Assembly: GCA_963667255.1 (NCBI GenBank)
Contig: OY762940.1
Location: 1,079,503 to 1,143,502 of the forward strand
Length of the DNA: 64,000 nt
Direction of reading: 5' to 3'
Source of the DNA: Candidatus Cloacimonadota bacterium
GTDB lineage: Bacteria > Cloacimonadota > Cloacimonadia > G963667145
Within the stretch, counting starts at the first letter, position 1, and each line of letters begins with the position of its first letter. Both the position numbers and the translations under genes were made by a program. Below, one piece after another: positions 22,709 to 31,449 of the stretch. The notes below the pieces were generated by a model that was not told the origin of the DNA, did no database searches, and saw only the letters and a list, made by a program, of their open reading frames with translations.

Positions 22709-22716
22709 TAATTTAA
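22709..22716. repeat. Target-site duplication (left copy) TAATTTAA
   Basis: Identical 8-mer directly abuts the outer ends of both inverted repeats. Confidence 0.65.
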
Positions 22717-22733
22717 GGTTCAAGATAACTTGA
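22717..22733. repeat. IS left terminal inverted repeat GGTTCAAGATAACTTGA
   Basis: Perfect 17-bp reverse complement of 23437-23453. Confidence 0.8.
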
Positions 22734-22763
22734 CAAGTGAATTATACTAGTTAAGTTGTTGAT

Positions 22764-23450
22764 ATGCCAATAAGAAACAAGTACGTAAAAAACTCCAAAA
22801 TTTCTGAAGAAAAATTTAGAGAAATAATTAAGTTTTTTTCTTTGGATATTGAGGCTAGTAAAATAGCACTTTTGACCAAAATTAGTAGAAAAACAGTTAA
22901 CAATTATTTACTTAAAATTAGAGAGAGAATTGCTGAATTTTGTTGTGAGGATTCTCATCTTTCTGGAATAATTGAAGTTGATGAATCTTACTTTGGAGCG
23001 AAAAGAGTTAAGGGGAAACGAGGACGAGGTGCTGGAGGTAAAATTAAAGTTTTCTGATTGCTCAAAAGAGGCGACAAAGTTTACACTCAAATGGTTGATA
23101 ATTGTAGCAGAAAGACATTACAAGCGATAATAAAAGAAAGGATAGAAAAGGGTAGTGAAATTCACTCTGATGGATGGAAAGCTTATAATGGATTGGTTGA
23201 TTTAGGATACCAAAAACACTATAGAGTTGACCATTCGAGCAATGAATTTGCCAATAAAAATGGACATATTAATGGGATTGAGAACTTTTGGGGAATAGCA
23301 AAATTGAGACTAACAAAATTTAAAGGAATTCATAAAAATATGTTCTATTTACACTTAAAAGAATGTGAATTTAGGTTTAATCATAGAAAGCAAAATTTAT
23401 ATAAAATTTTGCTAAAAATGTTCCGAAATAATCCGCTCAAGTTATCTTGA
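22764..23450 (+). pseudogene. IS1595-family (ISXO2-like) DDE transposase interrupted by a single in-frame TGA (23055-23057) at a conserved Gly position
   Basis: Translations ...IIEVDESYFGAKRVKGKRGRGAGGKIKVF*LLKRGDKVYTQ...SEIHSDGWKAYNGL...HYRVDHS...NGIENFWG... match the family pattern ETYFGGKRKGKRGRGA-GK-VFG-LER-G-V; stop replaces the G of VFG. Confidence 0.7.
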
Positions 23451-23453
23451 ACC
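23437..23453. repeat. IS right terminal inverted repeat
   Basis: Reverse complement equals GGTTCAAGATAACTTGA. Confidence 0.8.
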
Positions 23454-23461
23454 TAATTTAA
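23454..23461. repeat. Target-site duplication (right copy) TAATTTAA
   Basis: Identical to 22709-22716. Confidence 0.65.
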
Positions 23462-23471
23462 ATATTTTGAA

Positions 23472-23500
23472 TTGACAGATTTTAATTTAAAGTGTTTATA
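23472..23500 (+). promoter_or_regulatory. Sigma70-like promoter candidate for the HerA-NurA-MTase operon
   Basis: TTGACA, 17-nt spacer ending in TG, then TTTATA; about 37 nt upstream of the ATG at 23538, with gagg RBS in between. Confidence 0.3.
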
Positions 23501-23537
23501 GGTATTTGTTTTTTCCAAAATTTTAATTGAGGTTTAG

Positions 23538-25781
23538 ATGAGTATAGAACAAAGTATAATTTCTAGGCGAGAAAGTGATAAGAAAGTTGAAACCCAACAA
23601 TGGTTTCAAAAACTTATACAAACAAGCGAATATGTTGGTGATTTGTATTCTATCAACTATGAAACCGCAAGAGTAATAATTCATGATTTCTATAGAGAGA
23701 AAGTCGGAGGAATTCCAAGCTTAAGTTTTTTAATTGCCTCAAGAGTTGACCCCAATAATTCAGAAATTGATTTTAAAACAGAGGATGCATCATTTATTCT
23801 TTTAAGAGTAATGGATGCTATAGCGCTTCCGCAGGATAGAGAGGCAGAAAGAATTAGAGTTGAAACAGCACAAAGAATAAGTGGTGAAACTGAAAAAAAT
23901 TGGGATGAAGCAGGTTCAATGGATTTAAGAACAAAAAATCTGTTAAGTTTTGCTGGTGTTCAGTGCAGAATAATTGGAACATTTTATCTCGAAGAAAATG
24001 GAGAAAATGGAGAAGCACCACTTAATTTAAAATTTGGTAGTGATATTTCAAATTATTATCCAAACAGAGGATTAAAAGTTTATAAACCAAACGGGAAGGC
24101 TCTTGAGTTAATAGTAAATTATTCTGATCCTTCAAATATTCAAGCACACATTGAAAAATATGGAAACACAGAAAATGTAAAATTGGGTTTTGTAAGATAT
24201 GCTTCAACAAATAGAAAATATCAACAAATTAGTGATGTCCCTGTTTATATTTATCCAGCAGACCTTCTATCTCAAAAATCTGCCTTGTTTGGAATGACAA
24301 GGACAGGAAAATCCAATACGACTAAAATAATTGCAAAATCTGTTTTTGAATTACGAAATGCACAACGGTCTGGAGAAAATCCATTAAGAATTGGACAAAT
24401 AATTTTTGATCCCAACGGTGAATATGCCAATGAAAATGTTCAAGATAGGGACGGTAGCGGTAATCCAAATGCATTAAAAAATATTTGGCGAAAAGACGAA
24501 ACTTTAAGAAATATTGCTGATAAGCTGAAACAACAATATATTCAAGAAACAGAAATCGAAGAAAAGAAAAGATTATGGAATGAAATAAAATCATTGGTTG
24601 AAACAGAGGTGGTTACATATGGTATTTTACCACATCCACTAGACCCATTTCGTAGATTAATGAAAATAAACTTTTATGAAGAAGACAATCTTCAAATAGG
24701 TAAAGAAATCATTGATTTTAAAATTGCGGAGCAGTCAGCTCAGTATATTAAAAATTTTCGACAAGTTGTTTTCAAAAGACCAGTAGAAGATGAATACGAG
24801 AATGAGGTTGAATTTAATGGACAATTAAGGCGTTTTGAGAGAAGAGTTCTTGTTTATTGTGCATTGCTAAATAAAGCAGGTTTTAATCCACCGTTTCGAA
24901 CAGTTAATATTTCAAGAATGTTTAATGCTGACCTAAGAAATGCTATGATTAACTATTCTGAAAAAAAATTTACACGTAAACAAGGATTAATAAATGCAGC
25001 GGGTCAAACTCTGTCACAAACAAATGTAACCTGGGATAGTCTTGCACCTGCTTTTGAAGGTTTGTTCCATTTCCTTTCAACTGCTGATTACAATACATTC
25101 AACCAAGATTACATAAATAATCATCGTGATGATGAGAATGAGGATGCTACAGGAGAAGGTTGGGCTGAAGCAGAACTTGAAAGTTTGTTGGAAATGTTTA
25201 ATTATTCAAAAGCTATTAATCTAATTGGTGGTGTAAATACACAACATACAACATCAATAAGAACAGATTACGCCGAAGATATTTATAATGATTTAACTGA
25301 AGGGAAACTTGTTATTATTGACCAATCAAGTGGTGAGCCAGAACTAAACAAGTCTTCAGCAAATAGAATAATGTGGCATATTTTTAAAGCTAACCAAAGT
25401 GCATTTCGAGAGGGTGAGAAATTAATTCCCGAAATATTGGTTTATGTGGAGGAAGCTCATAATATATTACCAGCTGGTAATGATTTAGATTTAACCGATG
25501 TTTGGGTTAGGACAGCAAAGGAAGGTTCAAAATATAGAATTGGGATGGTTTACGCAACCCAAGAAGTAAGTAGTATTCAAAGAAATATTTTAAAAAATAC
25601 AGCGAATTGGTTTATAAGCCATTTAAACAATACTGATGAAACCAAAGAACTATGCAAGTACTATGATTTTGAAGACTTTGAGCCATCAATAAGGCGAGCA
25701 CAGGATAAGGGTTTTTTAAGAGTTAAAACTTTAAGCAATCTGTTTGTAATTCCAGTTCAGGTTGACAAATTTGAAGTCTAA
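23538..25781 (+). CDS. HerA/DUF87-like (FtsK-HerA superfamily) ATPase with about 250-aa N-terminal domain of unknown type
   Basis: Walker A GMTRTGKS (about aa 252), Walker B of hhhh-EEAH type ILVYVEEAH (about aa 637), downstream ATQ motif RIGMVYATQEV typical of HerA-family ATPases. Confidence 0.6.
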   Translation: MSIEQSIISRRESDKKVETQQWFQKLIQTSEYVGDLYSINYETARVIIHDFYREKVGGIPSLSFLIASRVDPNNSEIDFKTEDASFILLRVMDAIALPQDREAERIRVETAQRISGETEKNWDEAGSMDLRTKNLLSFAGVQCRIIGTFYLEENGENGEAPLNLKFGSDISNYYPNRGLKVYKPNGKALELIVNYSDPSNIQAHIEKYGNTENVKLGFVRYASTNRKYQQISDVPVYIYPADLLSQKSALFGMTRTGKSNTTKIIAKSVFELRNAQRSGENPLRIGQIIFDPNGEYANENVQDRDGSGNPNALKNIWRKDETLRNIADKLKQQYIQETEIEEKKRLWNEIKSLVETEVVTYGILPHPLDPFRRLMKINFYEEDNLQIGKEIIDFKIAEQSAQYIKNFRQVVFKRPVEDEYENEVEFNGQLRRFERRVLVYCALLNKAGFNPPFRTVNISRMFNADLRNAMINYSEKKFTRKQGLINAAGQTLSQTNVTWDSLAPAFEGLFHFLSTADYNTFNQDYINNHRDDENEDATGEGWAEAELESLLEMFNYSKAINLIGGVNTQHTTSIRTDYAEDIYNDLTEGKLVIIDQSSGEPELNKSSANRIMWHIFKANQSAFREGEKLIPEILVYVEEAHNILPAGNDLDLTDVWVRTAKEGSKYRIGMVYATQEVSSIQRNILKNTANWFISHLNNTDETKELCKYYDFEDFEPSIRRAQDKGFLRVKTLSNLFVIPVQVDKFEV

Positions 25782-25792
25782 ATTGAGTTAAT

Positions 25793-27160
25793 ATGGGGTT
25801 TGAAGGAGAATTTGCCAGTTATGAGCCATTAAGGCGAATGCTTGATAGTGATAAAGTTAAATCACTACAAGACAGACTGAAAATACGAAAACAAGAAGAA
25901 GAAACAGATACTTTCACTGGCTCAATTGTTAAAAAGTCAGACTTGACTGAAAGCTCAATACAACCTGATTTAGTTTTAGCAATTGATGGAAGCAATTTGG
26001 CGGCTAAAGCTGAAAGTGGATTTCCGGGTGCTGAATTTGGATATATTACAATAGCTTCTGTTTTAATAGATTTAAAACTTATTGATGATTTAGAAAAGAA
26101 ACAGTTTATTGACCCCAAAAAGGTTAGAGAAACAGAAAAAGCATCGACAATAGAAAGTGTCTTCCCCGGTTGCAATGTAATTTTGGACACAGAAAAAAAT
26201 GCAAATGCTTCACTTCGAAGAGCATTATTTGAAGAATTAAAATGTAACACAATATTTGCTAACGGTGGAGAAACATTATTGGATACTTATGAATACCTCT
26301 TCAGAATAAAGAGAGAGCATTTCTCTGAAAGCCGTCTTCCAAGAAGCCCTATTGATGGTATTGATAAAGAAATGACTTATGGATACGATGAATATCCTTG
26401 TCCTCATTCAGGAGAGCCATTATATTCAACTGATGCTTTGCGTTTACATGAATTAATGAATCCTGGTGGTAGTAATGGTGAAATGTTTGGGCAAATAATG
26501 TCAACTCTTGAAAAGGTATGGTTGGTTCATATACTCAGAGCATTTGAACAAAAAGAATGGTTATCAACCCTTCGGAGAGTAGCATTTATTATGGATGGAC
26601 CATTAGCTGTATTTAGTACTTCATCTTGGTTGACAAAAGTTATTAATTATGAATTAAATAGGCTAAATGAATTGCAGAAAGCAGTTAACGGTCAGGATTT
26701 ATTAATTATCGGTATTGAAAAATCAGGAACATTCGTAAATCATTTCGAAGAAATTGATACGACTAAAGATGGAGTTACAGATAAATTTCCAAAACAATCA
26801 GCATTACTGCTTGACGATGGCTATATAAAAAGAAATATTATTTTTTCTGAAAGCATAAAACCATATGGTCAAGACACTTATTTTGGAAGAAAAATATTTT
26901 ATAAAACTGCTTCTGGACAAAAAATAGTTCCAGTAATTGCATGTTATAATGACCAACAAAGAAATACCTCAACAGCAAATCCAAATCAATTTTCAAGGCT
27001 TTCAGATGTTATGAATTTGCTTGATAAATTGGTTTCAAGTAGATATCCAAATTCCGTTTCTCCTTTAGTATCTGCTCATGCAGAAGCAGCAATTCCTTTA
27101 AATTTAGGTAAACGGATATTTGAGGATATTGCAAGAGAAATAAGAGAAAAATCAAATTGA
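25793..27160 (+). CDS. NurA-like nuclease
   Basis: N-terminal LVLAIDGS motif, central IIGIEKSG motif, C-terminal His (SAHAEAA) consistent with NurA D-E-D-H layout; 11-nt gap to upstream gene. Confidence 0.5.
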   Translation: MGFEGEFASYEPLRRMLDSDKVKSLQDRLKIRKQEEETDTFTGSIVKKSDLTESSIQPDLVLAIDGSNLAAKAESGFPGAEFGYITIASVLIDLKLIDDLEKKQFIDPKKVRETEKASTIESVFPGCNVILDTEKNANASLRRALFEELKCNTIFANGGETLLDTYEYLFRIKREHFSESRLPRSPIDGIDKEMTYGYDEYPCPHSGEPLYSTDALRLHELMNPGGSNGEMFGQIMSTLEKVWLVHILRAFEQKEWLSTLRRVAFIMDGPLAVFSTSSWLTKVINYELNRLNELQKAVNGQDLLIIGIEKSGTFVNHFEEIDTTKDGVTDKFPKQSALLLDDGYIKRNIIFSESIKPYGQDTYFGRKIFYKTASGQKIVPVIACYNDQQRNTSTANPNQFSRLSDVMNLLDKLVSSRYPNSVSPLVSAHAEAAIPLNLGKRIFEDIAREIREKSN

Positions 27161-28287
27161 TGATTACAAAGGAAAAGATATTAAAAGGTTATAAAACCGC
27201 GGAGGCTCGATGGGCAAGATTTGGTCCATATTATGCCATGTTTCCTTTGGATTTTGCATTTGAGGTTGTTGAGAAATACTCAAAAAAAGGTGATTACATA
27301 CTTGACCCTTTTGCAGGTAGATGTAGCAGTATCTATGCTGGTGGTGTGCTTGGTCGAGTTAGCTTAGGTATTGAAATTAATCCCGTAGGCTGGCTCTTTG
27401 GGAAAGTAAAATTAGAACCTGCAGATAAGGAAGATGTAATTGACCGTTTACTTGAAATTTATGGTAAGCGAAATTATTATAGATGCTCAACTAAAAAATT
27501 ACCAGAATTTTATAGGATATGTTATAGCGATGAAGTCCTAAAATTCCTATTAGCAGCGAGAGCAAATCTTGACTGGATAAATAATGACATTGATGCAACT
27601 CTTATGTCAATTCTTTTGGTTTACTTACATGGTAAATTAGGAGAATGTTTGTCAAATCAAATGAGAATGACAAAGTCAATGGGAATGAACTATTCTGTTG
27701 AATGGTGGAAAAAAAATGGACTAACAAAACCACCTGAAATTAATCCCTTTGAATTCATTCTTAAAAAGATTGAATGGAGATATGAAAAAGGGACACCAAA
27801 TGTTACTGAAAGTGCAGTTGTATTTGGTGATAGTTCTAATCAATTAATCAACATTTCAGAGAGAGCCATTCAAAATGATATTAAATTTTCGCTTCTGTTT
27901 ACATCTCCACCATATTATTCAATCACAGATTACCATGCAGACCAGTGGCTGAGATTATGGCTGTTAGGAGGTTCAGAAAATCCGCAATCATTAAAAGACA
28001 AACATAAAGGAAGATTTGTAAACAAAGTTGATTACTACAATTTACTTGATACTGTATTTGAACTTAGTTCACGAATGATGGACGAAAGGAGTACAATTTA
28101 TGTCAGGACAGACAAGCGTGAATTTACTTTTAATTCTACTTTAGAGATTTTAAACAAGCATTTTCCAAATTATAAAACAAAGATTATTGAAAAGCCTTTA
28201 ACTAAAGACACCAAGACTCAGACAAAATTATTTGGTGACAAATCAATGAAGCCTGGAGAAGTTGATATAATATTACAAATAGAATAA
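27157..28287 (+). CDS. DNA methyltransferase (N6-adenine or N4-cytosine type)
   Basis: AdoMet motif I ILDPFAGRCSS followed by GRVSLGIEINP; catalytic motif IV FTSPPYY about 200 aa downstream; start overlaps upstream stop (ATGA). Confidence 0.6.
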   Translation: MMITKEKILKGYKTAEARWARFGPYYAMFPLDFAFEVVEKYSKKGDYILDPFAGRCSSIYAGGVLGRVSLGIEINPVGWLFGKVKLEPADKEDVIDRLLEIYGKRNYYRCSTKKLPEFYRICYSDEVLKFLLAARANLDWINNDIDATLMSILLVYLHGKLGECLSNQMRMTKSMGMNYSVEWWKKNGLTKPPEINPFEFILKKIEWRYEKGTPNVTESAVVFGDSSNQLINISERAIQNDIKFSLLFTSPPYYSITDYHADQWLRLWLLGGSENPQSLKDKHKGRFVNKVDYYNLLDTVFELSSRMMDERSTIYVRTDKREFTFNSTLEILNKHFPNYKTKIIEKPLTKDTKTQTKLFGDKSMKPGEVDIILQIE

Positions 28288-29134: not shown

Positions 29135-30340
29135 ATGGAAGGTAAAGTTTTAGTTGCACAGGGAGGAGGTCCTACCGCTGTGATTAATCAGTCGCTGGTA
29201 GGAGTGGTTTTGGAGTCTCGCAAATTCCCTCAAGTTACCAGAGTGTATGGCTCTCTTAATGGTTTGGAAGGCATAGTAAACGAGAATTTTTTGGATTTGA
29301 CTCAAGAAACTACTCACAATTTGGAACAAGTTGCCTTGACGCCTTCTTCCGCATTATTGTCCACCAGAATCAAACCTGATGCAGCTTATTGTAAGAAGAT
29401 TTTTGCAGTGCTAAAAAAATATAATATTCGCTATTTCTTCTATATCGGAGGCAACGATTCGTCTGATACCGTGAGAATAGTGAAAGAAGAGGCTGTGAAA
29501 GATGGTTACGATTTCAGGGCAATTCATATTCCCAAGACTATCGACAACGATTTGGTCGGCAATGATCATTCTCCAGGTTACGGCTCTGCTGCCCGCTTTG
29601 TTGCTCAGGCTTTTATGGGAGTCAATTTGGACAACAAGGCTTTGCCAGGAGTTTACATAGGCGTAATAATGGGTCGTCATGCGGGCTGGCTCACCGCTGC
29701 CTCCAGTTTGGCTCAAAAGTATCCCGATGATGGTCCGCACTTGATATATTTGCCGGAGAGAGCCTTTGATAAGCAAAAGTTTATTGGGGATATAAAGGCT
29801 GTTTATGCGAAATTCGGTCGCTGTGTGGTGGCTGTTTCCGAGGGCATCGTTGATAAGGATGGCATAGAGATTATTACCAAGTTGATGACAAATCAGGAGT
29901 GTGATGCACACGGCAATGTGCAGTTGTCGGGAACAGGAGCTTTGGGCGATTTGTTGGCTGAGTATGTTAGGAAAAATACGGATATTTCCCGAGTGAGAGC
30001 GGACACTTTCGGCTATCTGCAAAGGTCTTTTTATGGATGTGTTTCCGATGTTGACCAGAGTGAAGCCAGAGAAATTGCCGAGAGAGCTGTGCAATTTGCC
30101 ATTTGGCACAAAGAGGATGGCTCTATGAGTATTCAGAGAACAGGGTTTTATTCTGTGGATTACAAGCTAATTCCTATCGAGGAAGTTGCTGGCAAGACAA
30201 GAAAAGTCCCAGATTATTATATAAACGAAAAAGGGAATAATGTTACCGAAGAGCTGAAATACTATTTGCGACCTCTTGTCGGTTCAGGGTTTCAACTACC
30301 TAATCGTTTGAGAGCTCCGAGAGTGGAAAAAATTTTATGA
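29135..30340 (+). CDS. Phosphofructokinase family protein, probably PPi-dependent (Pfp-like)
   Basis: PFK fold motifs [25 protein letters not shown]; GGNDS in place of GGDGS (Asp at the position that discriminates PPi from ATP enzymes). Confidence 0.65.
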   Translation: MEGKVLVAQGGGPTAVINQSLVGVVLESRKFPQVTRVYGSLNGLEGIVNENFLDLTQETTHNLEQVALTPSSALLSTRIKPDAAYCKKIFAVLKKYNIRYFFYIGGNDSSDTVRIVKEEAVKDGYDFRAIHIPKTIDNDLVGNDHSPGYGSAARFVAQAFMGVNLDNKALPGVYIGVIMGRHAGWLTAASSLAQKYPDDGPHLIYLPERAFDKQKFIGDIKAVYAKFGRCVVAVSEGIVDKDGIEIITKLMTNQECDAHGNVQLSGTGALGDLLAEYVRKNTDISRVRADTFGYLQRSFYGCVSDVDQSEAREIAERAVQFAIWHKEDGSMSIQRTGFYSVDYKLIPIEEVAGKTRKVPDYYINEKGNNVTEELKYYLRPLVGSGFQLPNRLRAPRVEKIL

Positions 30341-31449
30341 GGCAAACCATGAAAAAAAAATGTTTGGTTGTAACAGGTGGCGGTGACTGCCCGGGTTTGA
30401 ATGCGGTTATCAGAGCGATAGTAAAGCGTGCCGATAGTGAGCCAGACTGGGAAATCTGGGGTAGCATGGATGCGTATAATGGTGTTTTGCAACAGCCTTG
30501 GCGGCTTATCAGATTGGACAAGAAAAAGGTTTCCGGTATTCATGTGCAGGGTGGCACTATTTTGGGAACTACCAACAAAGGTGGTCCTTTCGGATTTCCT
30601 GTGAAAAATTCCGACGGAGAGATTGTTTTGGAAGATAGGTCAGATTTGATGATTAGAGAGCTGAAAGAGGCTGGATTTGAGGCAGTTATCAGTATTGGCG
30701 GTGACGGCTCACAAACTATAAGCCAAAAGCTTTTTGAAAAAGGCTTGAATATGGTTGGTGTGCCGAAGACTATCGACAACGATTTGTCTTGCACCGACTA
30801 CACTTTTGGGTTCTCCACCGCTGTAGATGTGGCGACAGATGCGATAGACAAATTGGTAACGACCGCTGCGTCTCATCATCGTGTTTTGATTTTGGAAGTT
30901 ATGGGCAGATATGCTGGTTGGATTGCTTTGCACAGTTCGTTGGCAGCCGGAGCGGAAATCTGTTTAATTCCCGAGATACCTTACGATTTGGAGATTGTGA
31001 AGAATAAAATCAAAGAGCGGACAGAGAGGAAAGGGTTCTTGATTTTGGTAGTTGCCGAGGGTGCGAAGCCCAAAGATGGCGACATTTTCAGCAAAAAAAG
31101 CGAAGAGGTTGGGCATGAACAAAATGTTTTGGGTGGAATAGGTTTGCAATTGGAAAAATTGTTTAGCTCTGACCCCACAATAACAGCGGATGTTCGCACC
31201 TCTGTGCTTGGGCACTTGCAACGCGGAGGCAGACCGAGTGCTTTTGACCGCAATCTTGCCACACAATTTGGCGTGAAAGCGTTTGAGATGGTGCTGAATA
31301 AAGAGTTTGGCAAAATGGTGGTGGTCAATCACAAGAAAATGGAGTCCGTGAGCCTGAAAGAAGCAATCTCAACTTACAATTTGGTGGATAAAAACTCCGA
31401 TATGATTAAGACCGCTAGAGGTGTGGGGATTTGCTTCGGAGACGAATAA
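30337..31449 (+). CDS. pfkA: ATP-dependent 6-phosphofructokinase
   Basis: [35 protein letters not shown] motifs. Confidence 0.8.

What the first reader, a model, noticed from the sequence alone, without database searches (positions are those of the whole stretch)
27157..28287. Methyltransferase with motif I upstream of motif IV and an SPPY catalytic motif
DPFAGRCSS followed by GR-x-LGIEINP (AdoMet binding) lies about 200 residues before SPPYY. This is the reverse of the beta-class PF01555 order (IV then I) and suggests an alpha-like permutation; SPPY rather than DPPY/NPPY is more typical of N4-cytosine enzymes. The ATGA overlap with the nuclease gene suggests stoichiometric co-expression, as expected for a protective modification enzyme.
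Basis: partly seen in the sequence, partly recalled or inferred. Interest (0 to 1): 0.5.

Follow-up and report, generated by a model that had tools for sequence, protein, structure and literature searches.

The report
Methyltransferase of a HerA–NurA three-gene module
The gene encodes a DNA methyltransferase with the Dam-like (alpha) motif order, and it is the third, almost never-missing gene of a mobile HerA ATPase–NurA nuclease–methyltransferase cassette that looks like an uncatalogued, methylation-based relative of a recently described phage-defence system.

Summary
ORF 27160-28287 (+) encodes a 375-aa protein with DPFAGRCSS at residues 49-57 and SPPYY at 249-253. Only the C-terminal (motif X/I) part of Pfam PF01555 matches, and it matches at the protein's N-terminus.

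A confident AlphaFold model (pLDDT 92.7) shows strands b1 and b2, a 145-residue helical insert, then b3 and b4 followed by SPPY. This is the known alpha / "topology D" arrangement, and E. coli Dam is the top Foldseek hit. The permutation itself is therefore not new. N4-cytosine specificity is plausible but unproven.

The more interesting result is the context. In 79 of 80 genome loci found through the MTase, and 78 of 78 informative metagenome loci found through NurA, the same three genes (HerA-like ATPase, NurA nuclease, this MTase) are contiguous. Stop and start codons usually overlap, flanks differ every time, and no fourth gene is conserved. Diverged triads (26-31% identity, sometimes a different gene order) occur in a haloarchaeal plasmid, Deferribacter and Helicobacter pullorum.

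The HerA profile's best solved relative is TdpA, and NurA's only significant structural match is TdpB. Both belong to the phosphorothioate-based TdpABC defence system. PADLOC 2023 and the searchable literature do not list this triad as a defence system. The nearest described operon is Thermus ICEth1.

Best reading: a restriction-modification-like module with HerA-NurA as the degradative arm. This is inferred, not shown.

The parts
23538..25781 (+). HerA/FtsK-type ATPase, 747 aa, first gene of the triad. Walker A GMTRTGKSNT is at residues 252-261 and the EEAHN (Walker B region) at 638-642. Residues ~301-570 form a variable insert.
   Evidence: Pfam DUF87/HerA central domain, E 2.4e-12. The family profile's best PDB hit is TdpA 8wet (E 6.7e-27), against 1.3e-13 for Sir2-HerA and 2.8e-10 for archaeal HerA. 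Conservation profile over 74 sequences. Scores are far below the NCBIfam equivalog cut-offs for archaeal and anti-phage HerA.
25793..27160 (+). NurA-family nuclease, 455 aa, second gene. Invariant residues are D65, D214, H219, G269, G312 and H317.
   Evidence: Pfam NurA PF09376, E 1.7e-31, 110 bits against a cut-off of 21, covering residues 60-434. Invariant columns in a 25-sequence alignment down to 23% identity. The only significant Foldseek PDB hit of a low-confidence model is TdpB 8wfd_G (E 3.4e-5).
27157..27162 (+). Gene junction TTGATG. The NurA stop TGA (27158-27160) shares one base with the MTase ATG (27160-27162).
   Evidence: Sequence. Stop and start overlap in 121 of 136 distinct loci, with ATGA in 77 and TGATG in 9.
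27160..28287 (+). SAM-dependent DNA amino-methyltransferase, 375 aa, alpha-like (topology D) motif order, third gene.
   Evidence: AlphaFold model mdc7504aa7157, pLDDT 92.7, pTM 0.92.
27229..27384 (+). AdoMet-binding region: YYAMFP (residues 24-29), motif I DPFAGRCSS (49-57, after strand b1 46-49), and motif II GRVSLGIEINP (65-75, strand b2 67-72, with E72).
   Evidence: Matches PF01555 profile positions 159-213. D49/F51/G53/R54 are invariant and E72 is at least 98% conserved.
27382..27813 (+). All-helical insert of about 145 residues (75-218) between strands b2 and b3. It sits where the target-recognition domain of alpha-class enzymes sits.
   Evidence: Secondary structure of the model. No Pfam match. 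It is as conserved as the catalytic core.
27826..27972 (+). Catalytic region: GDS (223-225, after b3), motif IV TSPPYY (248-253, after b4 243-248), and the family signature DQWLRLWLLGG (261-271).
   Evidence: S249-P-P-Y252, W263 and W267 are invariant, and D224 is conserved in at least 90% of the 47 sequences and at least 98% of 84.
22716..23454 (.). IS1595-family remnant immediately upstream of the triad. It marks the left edge of the low-GC acquired segment.
   Evidence: Perfect 18-nt terminal inverted repeats. DDE_Tnp_IS1595 is split over two ORFs. GC is 31-34% across 23000-28000, against 38-44% in the flanks.

Best explanation
The ORF encodes an active SAM-dependent DNA amino-methyltransferase of the alpha / topology D type. 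Its specificity is probably N4-cytosine but possibly N6-adenine. It is the modification arm of a self-contained, horizontally mobile three-gene module: HerA-like translocase, NurA nuclease and MTase.

Proposed mechanism (inferred):
1. The MTase marks the host chromosome at a fixed short motif.
2. A HerA hexamer-NurA complex, like archaeal HerA-NurA and TdpAB, loads on DNA and uses ATP to thread it into the nuclease.
3. Methylated self DNA stalls or excludes this machine, as phosphorothioate does for TdpAB.
4. Unmethylated incoming DNA is degraded processively.

Shown here: the fold and motif order, intact SAM-binding and catalytic residues, intact ATPase and nuclease motifs, near-obligate reciprocal gene linkage with translational coupling, mobility, and the relationship of HerA (and tentatively NurA) to TdpA/TdpB.

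Inferred: methylation activity, base and sequence specificity, complex formation, and the self/non-self logic.
For: **MTase identity and integrity**
- PF01555 scores above threshold, and type II MTase HMMs match over 260 residues.
- Motif I D49/F51/G53, motif II E72, motif III D224 and motif IV SPPY are conserved across the family.
- The structural model is confident, and Dam is the top Foldseek hit.

**Linkage**
- HerA and NurA lie directly upstream in every one of 80 genome loci with room, except L062.
- In the reverse direction, the MTase lies directly downstream of NurA in 78 of 78 informative metagenome loci, and HerA is present in all.
- The NurA stop and MTase start overlap in 121 of 136 loci.
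- No fourth gene is conserved over 149 loci.

**Depth of the association**
- Triads exist at 54% and 43% MTase identity.
- A Halorarius plasmid triad has 31/28/26% identity for the three proteins.
- The order MTase-HerA-NurA occurs in Deferribacter and Helicobacter pullorum.

**Asymmetry expected of a toxic nuclease and a protective MTase**
- One solitary MTase was found (L062).
- No HerA-NurA pair of this clade was found without the MTase.

**Mobility and defence context**
- Flanks are unique to each locus.
- The window shows a GC dip and an IS remnant.
- Recurrent neighbours are dGTPase, Type III Mod, PIN_8, Schlafen/AlbA_2, PRTase and integrases.
- Identity of 60-95% spans many phyla, including Archaea-labelled MAGs, Acinetobacter and Bacteroides.

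**Relationship to a known modification-sensing machine**
- The HerA profile hits TdpA at E 6.7e-27.
- The NurA model hits TdpB at E 3.4e-5 as its only significant match.
Against: - There is no functional, methylome or phage-challenge evidence of any kind.
- The putative recognition insert of the MTase is as conserved as the core. Typical R-M systems diversify their recognition domains.
- Neither HerA nor NurA shows an obvious sequence-specific or methyl-reading domain, so how methylation would be sensed is unknown.
- Motif I carries C (or F) in place of the second glycine in this clade (GRC rather than GRG). This is probably tolerated but was not tested.
- In the only experimentally studied NurA/HerA-like/PF01555-methylase operon (Thermus ICEth1), the genes serve DNA donation, and loss of the methylase had only minor effects (PMC5365140, PMC7767461).
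- The NurA-TdpB link rests on a poor model (pLDDT 55). Sequence profiles give E = 1 or no hit.
- The triad was not found in IMG/VR viral contigs. Close relatives of the MTase were not found on PLSDB plasmids or in the phage collection. The vehicle of transfer is therefore unknown.
Confidence: 0.6

Rival explanations
1. The MTase is a targeting or regulatory subunit of the complex, as Mod is in Type III and HsdM in Type I systems. It both methylates and supplies the only sequence-specific DNA recognition, recruiting or licensing HerA-NurA at unmethylated sites, rather than acting as a free-standing protective enzyme.
For: - It is the only component with a plausible recognition domain, the insert at 75-218.
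- Coupling to NurA is tight, with overlapping codons.
- The three proteins have diverged to similar degrees in remote triads (31/28/26%), as expected for interacting partners.
Against: - A solitary copy exists and looks intact (L062).
- Different gene orders place the MTase next to HerA or next to NurA.
- No interaction evidence exists, and no extra docking domain appears in the model.
Confidence: 0.15
2. It is a DNA-transfer (donation/'transjugation'-type) or mobile-element maintenance module like Thermus ICEth1. There a NurA-like nuclease, the HerA-like pump TdtA and a PF01555 methylase are co-transcribed and push chromosomal DNA out of the cell.
For: - The same three protein families sit in one operon in ICEth1, and NurA and TdtA are required for DNA donation (PMC5365140; PMC7767461).
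- The triad is clearly mobile.
- Tyrosine integrases or resolvases occur near some copies.
Against: - No Type IIG enzyme, integrase or other ICE gene is conserved with the triad over 149 loci.
- The window copy sits between housekeeping genes beside a dead IS.
- None of the three proteins has a hydrophobic segment.
- Orthology of TdtA and TTC1880 to these proteins could not be tested.
Confidence: 0.12
3. HerA-NurA is a housekeeping double-strand-break resection system, as annotated by NCBI and as in Deinococcus and archaea. On this view the MTase is an unrelated epigenetic or orphan enzyme that happens to travel with it.
For: - NCBI names the NurA homologues 'DNA double-strand break repair nuclease NurA'.
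- One locus sits among replication genes (gyrB, dnaN).
Against: - The distribution is sporadic and cross-phylum, with 60-95% identity and different flanks each time.
- The window copy has low GC and an adjacent IS.
- There is no mre11/rad50 linkage.
- HerA scores 42 bits against the archaeal HerA equivalog, whose cut-off is 800.
- Reciprocal linkage to the MTase is near-obligate.
Confidence: 0.05
4. The enzyme methylates RNA or protein rather than DNA, for example as an m2G-type amino-methyltransferase.
For: - Distant relatives also touch PF01170 (RMKL-like) weakly.
Against: - The window protein hits only PF01555, even at E up to 10.
- Type II DNA MTase HMMs match 260 residues.
- There is no THUMP or other RNA-binding domain.
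- The obligate partners are a DNA translocase and a DNA nuclease.
Confidence: 0.03

Closest known systems
Alpha-class / 'topology D' DNA amino-methyltransferases (E. coli Dam, T4 Dam, M1.DpnII, M.CbeI)
   Same: The linear order is the same: motif X/I, b2, inserted recognition domain, b3, motif IV and the rest of the catalytic region. It is a single-domain protein with an (S/D)PPY catalytic tetrapeptide. Dam is the top Foldseek hit.
   Different: - The insert is about 145 residues and all-helical, against 60-80 aa in the solved enzymes.
- TM-scores to Dam are only 0.34/0.47.
- There is no hit to the Dam family Pfam PF02086. Sequence similarity is instead to the motif X/I half of the beta-class family PF01555.
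- The catalytic motif is SPPY rather than DPPY.
- The family has its own signature, TSPPY-x8-DQWLRLWxLG.
TdpABC phosphorothioate-based defence system (An et al. 2025, Nat Chem Biol; PDB 8wet/8wfd/8y1k)
   Same: The logic is three genes: one DNA-modifying enzyme, a HerA/FtsK-type hexameric translocase and a nuclease. TdpA is by far the best solved relative of this HerA family (E 6.7e-27). TdpB is the only significant structural match of the NurA model. From my own recollection of the published abstract, self-DNA modification inhibits TdpAB translocation and nuclease activity.
   Different: - The modification enzyme here is a methyltransferase, not the PT-forming TdpC.
- HerA here is 747 aa with a large variable insert, against 586 aa for TdpA.
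- The NurA-TdpB relationship is not established at sequence level.
- The Tdp paper itself could not be read.
Thermus thermophilus ICEth1 tdtA operon (Tth111II/TthHB27I - NurA-like TTC1878 - TdtA - PF01555 methylase TTC1880)
   Same: It is the only experimentally studied operon that combines a NurA-like nuclease, a HerA-like ATPase and a PF01555 methylase (410 aa), and it sits on a mobile element.
   Different: - The gene order is NurA-HerA-MTase, and a Type IIG enzyme and an integrase are part of the unit.
- Its function is DNA donation (transjugation), and the methylase is dispensable.
- Sequence relationship to the present proteins was not tested because the sequences could not be retrieved.
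Sir2-HerA and DUF4297-HerA anti-phage systems (Gao_Her)
   Same: A bacterial HerA-family ATPase is paired with an effector in a compact mobile defence operon. PADLOC HerA models give weak partial hits.
   Different: - The effector here is NurA, not Sir2 or DUF4297, and a modification enzyme is present.
- The NCBIfam HerA_antiphage equivalogs score 27-32 bits against cut-offs of 800-850.
- The PDB profile hit is 13 orders of magnitude weaker than the hit to TdpA.
Archaeal/Deinococcus HerA-NurA end-resection complex
   Same: The NurA Pfam domain is covered end to end. A HerA-type ATPase is adjacent and probably forms a translocase-nuclease complex.
   Different: - There is no Mre11-Rad50 linkage.
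- HerA is not an equivalog (42 bits against 800).
- The distribution is sporadic and mobile, and the MTase partner is obligate.
ATP-dependent restriction-modification systems (Type I, Type III, Type ISP, CglI-type)
   Same: A methyltransferase is combined with an NTP-driven DNA motor and a nuclease. The operon is compact and lies in a defence-island neighbourhood.
   Different: - The motor is a ring-forming HerA/FtsK ATPase rather than an SF2 helicase.
- The nuclease is RNase H-like NurA rather than PD-(D/E)xK.
- There is no specificity subunit, and the recognition region does not diversify.

Membership tests
Pfam PF01555 N6_N4_Mtase (beta-class DNA amino-MTases) | Whole-protein score above the Pfam gathering threshold | tested here: met
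   42.6 bits against 26.7, E 8.7e-11.
Pfam PF01555 N6_N4_Mtase (beta-class DNA amino-MTases) | Beta motif order: catalytic motif IV (D/S)PPY N-terminal to AdoMet motif I | tested here: not met
   Motif I is at residues 49-57 and SPPY at 249-252. Profile positions 159-213 align to protein residues 17-75. The alignment to beta-class TTHA0409 is circularly permuted.
Alpha class / topology D amino-MTases | Order Hd1-S5(motif I)-S6-[TRD]-S7-S4(motif IV)-S3-S1-S2 in a single domain | tested here: met
   The AlphaFold model has strands at 46-49 and 67-72, helices at 75-218, then strands at 219-222, 243-248, 307-318, 339-345 and 367-373. Dam is the top Foldseek hit.
Alpha class / topology D amino-MTases | Sequence membership of the Dam/D12 family (PF02086) and a DPPY motif | tested here: not met
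   The window protein has no PF02086 hit at E up to 10. Distant relatives give only weak hits (E 3.8e-5 and 1.5e-3). The motif is SPPY.
N4-cytosine-specific DNA MTases | S-P-P-Y/F at motif IV | tested here: met
   TSPPY is invariant. The motif is suggestive only, because the class D m4C enzyme M.CbeI has DPPY.
N4-cytosine-specific DNA MTases | Demonstrated m4C product at a defined motif | not testable with these tools
   This needs a methylome or biochemistry. Automatic names of relatives conflict, some cytosine-N4 and some adenine-specific.
Classical Type II R-M system | Adjacent cognate restriction endonuclease (PD-(D/E)xK, HNH, GIY-YIG, PLD) | tested here: not met
   The neighbours are NurA, HerA, an IS1595 remnant, ThiF and PFK. 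The conserved partners in about 160 loci are only HerA and NurA.
TdpABC | TdpA-type HerA/FtsK translocase | tested here: met
   The HerA family profile hits TdpA 8wet at E 6.7e-27 in two stretches that include the Walker A region. The next best PDB family is at 1.3e-13.
TdpABC | TdpB-type nuclease partner | tested here: inconclusive
   Foldseek gives E 3.4e-5 as the only significant hit, but the model has pLDDT 55. hmmsearch gives E = 1 with one profile and no hit with a larger one.
TdpABC | TdpC phosphorothioate-forming modification enzyme | tested here: not met
   The third gene is a SAM-dependent methyltransferase.
Sir2-HerA / DUF4297-HerA (Gao_Her) | HerA_antiphage equivalog score and a Sir2 or DUF4297 partner | tested here: not met
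   NF042943 and NF042944 score 31.7 and 27.2 bits against cut-offs of 800 and 850. The partner is NurA.
Archaeal HerA-NurA-Mre11-Rad50 resection system | NurA domain | tested here: met
   PF09376 scores 110 bits and matches profile positions 2-254 of 254.
Archaeal HerA-NurA-Mre11-Rad50 resection system | HerA equivalog and mre11/rad50 linkage | tested here: not met
   NF040937 and NF040819 score 42 and 37 bits against cut-offs of 800 and 970. There is no mre11 or rad50 among the neighbours.
Thermus ICEth1 transjugation operon | NurA-like, HerA-like ATPase and PF01555 methylase in one operon | tested here: met
   All three families are present and contiguous, though in a different order.
Thermus ICEth1 transjugation operon | Type IIG restriction enzyme and integrase in the same element; orthology to TdtA and TTC1880 | tested here: not met
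   The first half was tested and not met: no Type IIG enzyme or integrase is conserved with the triad.

The most novel reading that the evidence does not exclude
The HerA-NurA-MTase triad is a widespread restriction-modification type that is not yet catalogued. Its restriction arm is a ring translocase-nuclease 'resection machine' held in check by base methylation, which would make it the methylation counterpart of the phosphorothioate-based TdpABC system. It occurs in at least two large clades with different gene orders, across Bacteroidota, Campylobacterota (Helicobacter pullorum), Acinetobacter, CPR bacteria and haloarchaea.
Probability: 0.45. Interest if true: 0.75.

Novelty: new variant of a known kind. 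Interest (0 to 1): 0.58.

Why it matters
The permuted motif order is ordinary once the fold is seen, because it is the Dam-like class. What matters is the company the gene keeps.

**Scale.** A compact three-gene cassette recurs in thousands of database sequences from many phyla and both prokaryotic domains. PADLOC 2023 has no NurA model that matches, and the searchable literature does not describe the cassette as a defence system.

**If it is a defence system.**
- It would add a new restriction architecture built from a HerA/FtsK ring motor and a NurA nuclease.
- Together with TdpABC, it would show that this motor-nuclease pair has been combined with at least two chemically different self-marks, phosphorothioate and methyl.
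- It would pose a clean mechanistic question: how does a processive translocase sense a methyl group?

**Practical consequences.**
- 'DNA double-strand break repair nuclease NurA' annotations in bacteria would need revisiting.
- The MTase would be a new, probably fixed-specificity enzyme for methylome interpretation in hosts such as Helicobacter pullorum, Acinetobacter towneri and Bacteroides hominis.

Tried and rejected
- **G-to-C change in motif I as a marker of HerA-NurA linkage.** Rejected. Triad members at 54% and 43% identity have GRG, and one has GRF.
- **Thermus TTC1880/TdtA orthology.** I could not obtain the sequences. Plasmid and phage tblastn searches and a search seeded with the Deferribacter MTase returned no relevant Thermus hit. 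The listing of cluster members was uninformative.
- **NurA structure.**
  - The permitted alignment (77-96% identity) gave a poor model, pLDDT 55. I treat its TdpB hit as a lead only.
  - Sequence profiles of NurA against the PDB mostly find C2H2 zinc fingers.
- **Domain searches of the extra regions.** Pfam searches of the HerA N-terminal 245 residues, the HerA variable insert and the MTase insert found nothing.
- **Viral contigs.** There was no NurA relative in IMG/VR.
- **Papers.** Ten full-text searches were run, including one wasted on 'TdpA', which returned FTLD-TDP pathology papers. None describes a HerA-NurA-methyltransferase defence system. The Tdp paper and Iyer et al. 2004 are not held.
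- **Promoter and terminator scans.** These were at background level and are uninformative for a probable Bacteroidota genome.
- **att-like direct repeats.** I searched around the triad and found none convincing. Only the IS1595 terminal inverted repeats turned up.


Full report
**1. The observation**

- The ORF listing gives an ORF at 27157 (TTG) to 28287 on the + strand. It follows ORFs at 23538-25781 and 25793-27160 on the same strand.
- The translation contains DPFAGRCSS, GRVSLGIEINP and TSPPYY. Counting from the ATG at 27160, these are residues 49-57, 65-75 and 248-253. Homologues also start there, with 'MI..'. SPPY therefore begins exactly 200 residues after motif I.
- Pfam PF01555 matches above threshold (42.6 bits, E 8.7e-11). 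Only its C-terminal motif X/I part (profile 159-213 of 221) matches, and it falls at the protein's N-terminus (residues 17-75).
- phmmer against PDB sequences shows the permutation explicitly against the beta-class enzyme TTHA0409. Query 25-75 aligns to chain 217-267, and query 243-259 to chain 41-57.
- Two PADLOC type II MTase models align co-linearly over about 260 residues (E 4e-17 and 4e-15). Enzymes with this order therefore already exist in restriction-enzyme collections.
- The 'ATGA overlap' is not literal here. The NurA TGA (27158-27160) shares one base with the ATG, giving TGATG.

**2. Fold and class**

- I built an alignment of 47 sequences reaching down to 21% identity. It gave an AlphaFold model with pLDDT 92.7 and pTM 0.92.
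- The strand order is:
  - b1 at 46-49, followed by motif I;
  - b2 at 67-72, carrying E72;
  - eight helices spanning 75-218;
  - b3 at 219-222, followed by GDS;
  - b4 at 243-248, followed by SPPY;
  - b5, b6 and b7 at 307-318, 339-345 and 367-373.
- This is the arrangement Samokhina & Alexeevski define as topology D, the old alpha class (Dam, T4 Dam, M1.DpnII, M.CbeI). In that class the recognition domain is inserted between S6/Hd3 and S7.
- Foldseek against the PDB puts E. coli Dam first, at E 5e-6, though TM-scores are only 0.34/0.47.
It is a known class, here with an unusually large (about 145 aa) all-helical insert that has no Pfam match.

**3. The MTase family**

- The word-indexed search found 2227 relatives. 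The best 120 are 75-100% identical and come from very different taxa.
- The exhaustive search of 50% cluster representatives found 1618 clusters at E up to 1e-3, and 81 at E up to 1e-30.
- D49, F51, G53, R54, S249-P-P-Y252, W263 and W267 are invariant across the 47-sequence alignment.
- The family signature is DPFxGR[G/C/F]xx … TSPPY-x8-DQWLRLWxLG.
- The window's clade has GRC where most members have GRG.
  - The change does not track gene context.
  - From my own knowledge, active enzymes such as M.PvuII also lack the second glycine. I do not read the change as inactivation.
- All SAM-binding and catalytic positions are conserved in at least 98% of 84 sequences: D49, E72, D224 and SPPY.
- SPPY favours N4-cytosine but does not prove it. 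M.CbeI (m4C, same topology) has DPPY. Automatic names for relatives conflict.

**4. Context: a three-gene cassette**

- Upstream lie a 747-aa HerA/DUF87 ATPase and a 455-aa NurA nuclease (PF09376, 110 bits, end to end).
- I fetched 80 species-representative genome loci through the MTase and located all three proteins by tblastn.
  - HerA, NurA and MTase are contiguous and co-oriented in every locus with enough sequence.
  - The one exception is L062, where a 68%-identical MTase stands alone next to a Vsr-like ORF and a Dcm-like MTase.
- As a reciprocal test, I fetched 80 metagenome loci through a NurA alignment.
  - The MTase lies directly downstream in 78 of 78 loci with room.
  - HerA is present in all.
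- The NurA stop and MTase start overlap in 121 of 136 distinct loci. ATGA accounts for 77.
- Clustering the flanking ORFs of 149 distinct loci shows no fourth conserved gene.
  - The most recurrent neighbours appear in at most 12 loci each.
  - They are PIN_8, Schlafen/AlbA_2, a Type III Mod methylase, an anti-phage dGTPase, a PRTase and tyrosine integrases. This is defence-island and mobilome company.
- No other locus shares the window's flanks.
- In the window, the cassette has 31-34% GC against 38-44% around it.
- The cassette begins 83 nt after a dead IS1595 element that still has intact 18-nt inverted repeats.

**5. Depth of the association**

Triads persist at every level of divergence I could sample:
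- 54% MTase identity (L084) and 43% (L085, motif GRG).
- A Halorarius halobius plasmid, with 31%, 28% and 26% identity for HerA, NurA and MTase.
- The order MTase-HerA-NurA on the Deferribacter megaplasmid, where herA is split by an IS200/IS605 element.
- The same order in Helicobacter pullorum. That second clade has more than 2000 members, in Campylobacterota and Clostridia.

Other distant MTase relatives are solitary or sit with different partners: dGTPase plus a 1416-aa AAA protein, or ParA plus SIR2.

Close relatives of the MTase were not found on PLSDB plasmids or in the phage collection, and a NurA-seeded scan found no relative in IMG/VR.

**6. The partners**

HerA:
- It keeps Walker A (GMTRTGKSNT, 252-261) and the EEAHN region (638-642).
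- The only strongly variable part of the whole cassette is a HerA insert at about 301-570.
- A HerA family profile hits TdpA (PDB 8wet) at E 6.7e-27, in two stretches that include the Walker A region. Sir2-associated HerA scores 1.3e-13 and archaeal HerA 2.8e-10.
- It is far below the NCBIfam equivalog cut-offs for both archaeal and 'anti-phage' HerA.

NurA:
- It keeps invariant D65, D214, H219, G269, G312 and H317.
- It contains a C2H2-zinc-finger-like segment that is degenerate in the window copy.
- Only closely related sequences were allowed into the structure job, and the model is poor (pLDDT 55).
- Even so, its single significant Foldseek hit is TdpB in the TdpAB-DNA complex (E 3.4e-5). 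Archaeal NurA ranks fourth.
- Sequence profiles do not confirm the TdpB link, so I treat it as suggestive.

None of the three proteins has a membrane-like segment.

**7. Mechanism**

The evidence fits a restriction-modification-like module. The supporting points are:
- a nuclease-motor pair that is never seen without the MTase;
- an MTase that can occur alone;
- translational coupling;
- mobility and defence-island neighbours;
- a motor most closely related to TdpA.

TdpABC is a three-gene system in which one enzyme (TdpC) phosphorothioates DNA and TdpAB restricts (PMC12914056). From my recollection of An et al. 2025, the modification inhibits TdpAB translocation and cleavage on self DNA.

I therefore propose that methylation plays the role of the phosphorothioate here. 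All activity claims are inferred.

Points that do not fit a textbook R-M system:
- the conserved, non-diversifying MTase insert;
- the absence of any recognisable methyl- or sequence-reading domain in HerA or NurA;
- the Thermus precedent, described next.

**8. Comparison with the literature**

- The only described operon with the same three families is Thermus ICEth1: Tth111II, NurA-like, TdtA, and the 410-aa PF01555 methylase TTC1880.
  - There, NurA and TdtA are needed for DNA donation.
  - The methylase is nearly dispensable (PMC5365140, PMC7767461).
- I could not test whether those proteins belong to this clade.
- No ICE genes are conserved with the triad. I therefore rank a DNA-transfer role as a minority alternative.
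- PADLOC 2.0 has no model matching this NurA. It gives only weak, partial HerA/mad8 hits.
- Ten full-text searches found no paper describing a HerA-NurA-methyltransferase defence system. Subscription papers and newer catalogues were not searchable, so prior description cannot be excluded.

**9. Verdict**

- m4C specificity is open.
- The protective-MTase idea is well supported by comparative genomics and points to a widespread three-gene module. That module is best described as a new, methylation-based variant of the HerA-type translocase/nuclease defence architecture exemplified by TdpABC.
- Interest is moderate to high and depends on experimental confirmation.

Noticed in passing
window 22716-23454: A 739-bp IS1595-family remnant with perfect 18-nt terminal inverted repeats (22716-22733 and 23437-23454). 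Its transposase is split into two ORFs (22764-23057 and 23058-23450). It ends 83 nt before herA.
   Followed up: partly
window 29135-30340 and 30337-31449: Two tandem phosphofructokinase paralogues (401 and 370 aa) with a 4-nt overlap. tRNA-Ser and tRNA-Arg lie just downstream.
   Followed up: no
window 24438-25247 (HerA residues ~301-570): This is the only strongly variable segment of the whole cassette, with 18-45% of sequences sharing the window residue against 70-95% elsewhere. It has no Pfam match. It could be an interaction or anti-inhibitor surface or a sensor.
   Followed up: partly
window 26300-26480 (NurA residues ~170-229): The NurA family profile resembles C2H2-type zinc fingers in this segment (Aart 2i13, E 0.004). 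Distant members have CxxC…CxxC. The window copy has lost most cysteines but keeps the invariant C203, D214 and H219.
   Followed up: partly
L062 3973-7312 (Nitrospiraceae UBA665): This is the only close MTase (68% identity, canonical GRGSS) without HerA-NurA. It overlaps a downstream ORF whose C-terminus looks Vsr-like, followed by a Dcm-like C5 methyltransferase.
   Followed up: partly
L091 5923-8982 (Salmonella Infantis plasmid); L089 4583-11309 (Bradyrhizobium plasmid): Distant members of the same SPPY/DQWLRLW MTase family sit in other candidate defence trios. One is MTase-ParA-SIR2. The other is anti-phage dGTPase, MTase, and a convergent 1416-aa AAA protein.
   Followed up: no
L088 7172-10970 (Deferribacter desulfuricans pDF308): The herA gene of an MTase-HerA-NurA triad is split by an IS200/IS605 tnpA-tnpB insertion. 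An identical IS copy lies 4 kb upstream.
   Followed up: no
L172-L174 5837-11506 (Helicobacter pullorum-type contigs): A Dam-like (PF02086) methyltransferase gene lies immediately upstream of the MTase-HerA-NurA triad. It is full length (343 aa) in one contig and truncated (221 aa) in two others.
   Followed up: no
L001 11271-18598 (Pontibacter liquoris): Just downstream of the triad, a comM-like Mg-chelatase gene is split into two fragments by an insertion that carries a resolvase and a tyrosine integrase.
   Followed up: no
L119 2406-3275; L117 and L166: In three metagenome loci the herA-nurA junction is interrupted. There is an insertion of about 860 nt between the genes, or herA is split into separate HSPs. 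This suggests decaying copies or an extra small ORF.
   Followed up: no
(identity table across loci): The three genes do not diverge in step between loci. HerA/NurA/MTase identities are 83/80/81% in L013, 67/86/84% in L004 and 74/50/67% in L060. This suggests recombination that shuffles HerA and NurA variants between cassettes.
   Followed up: no
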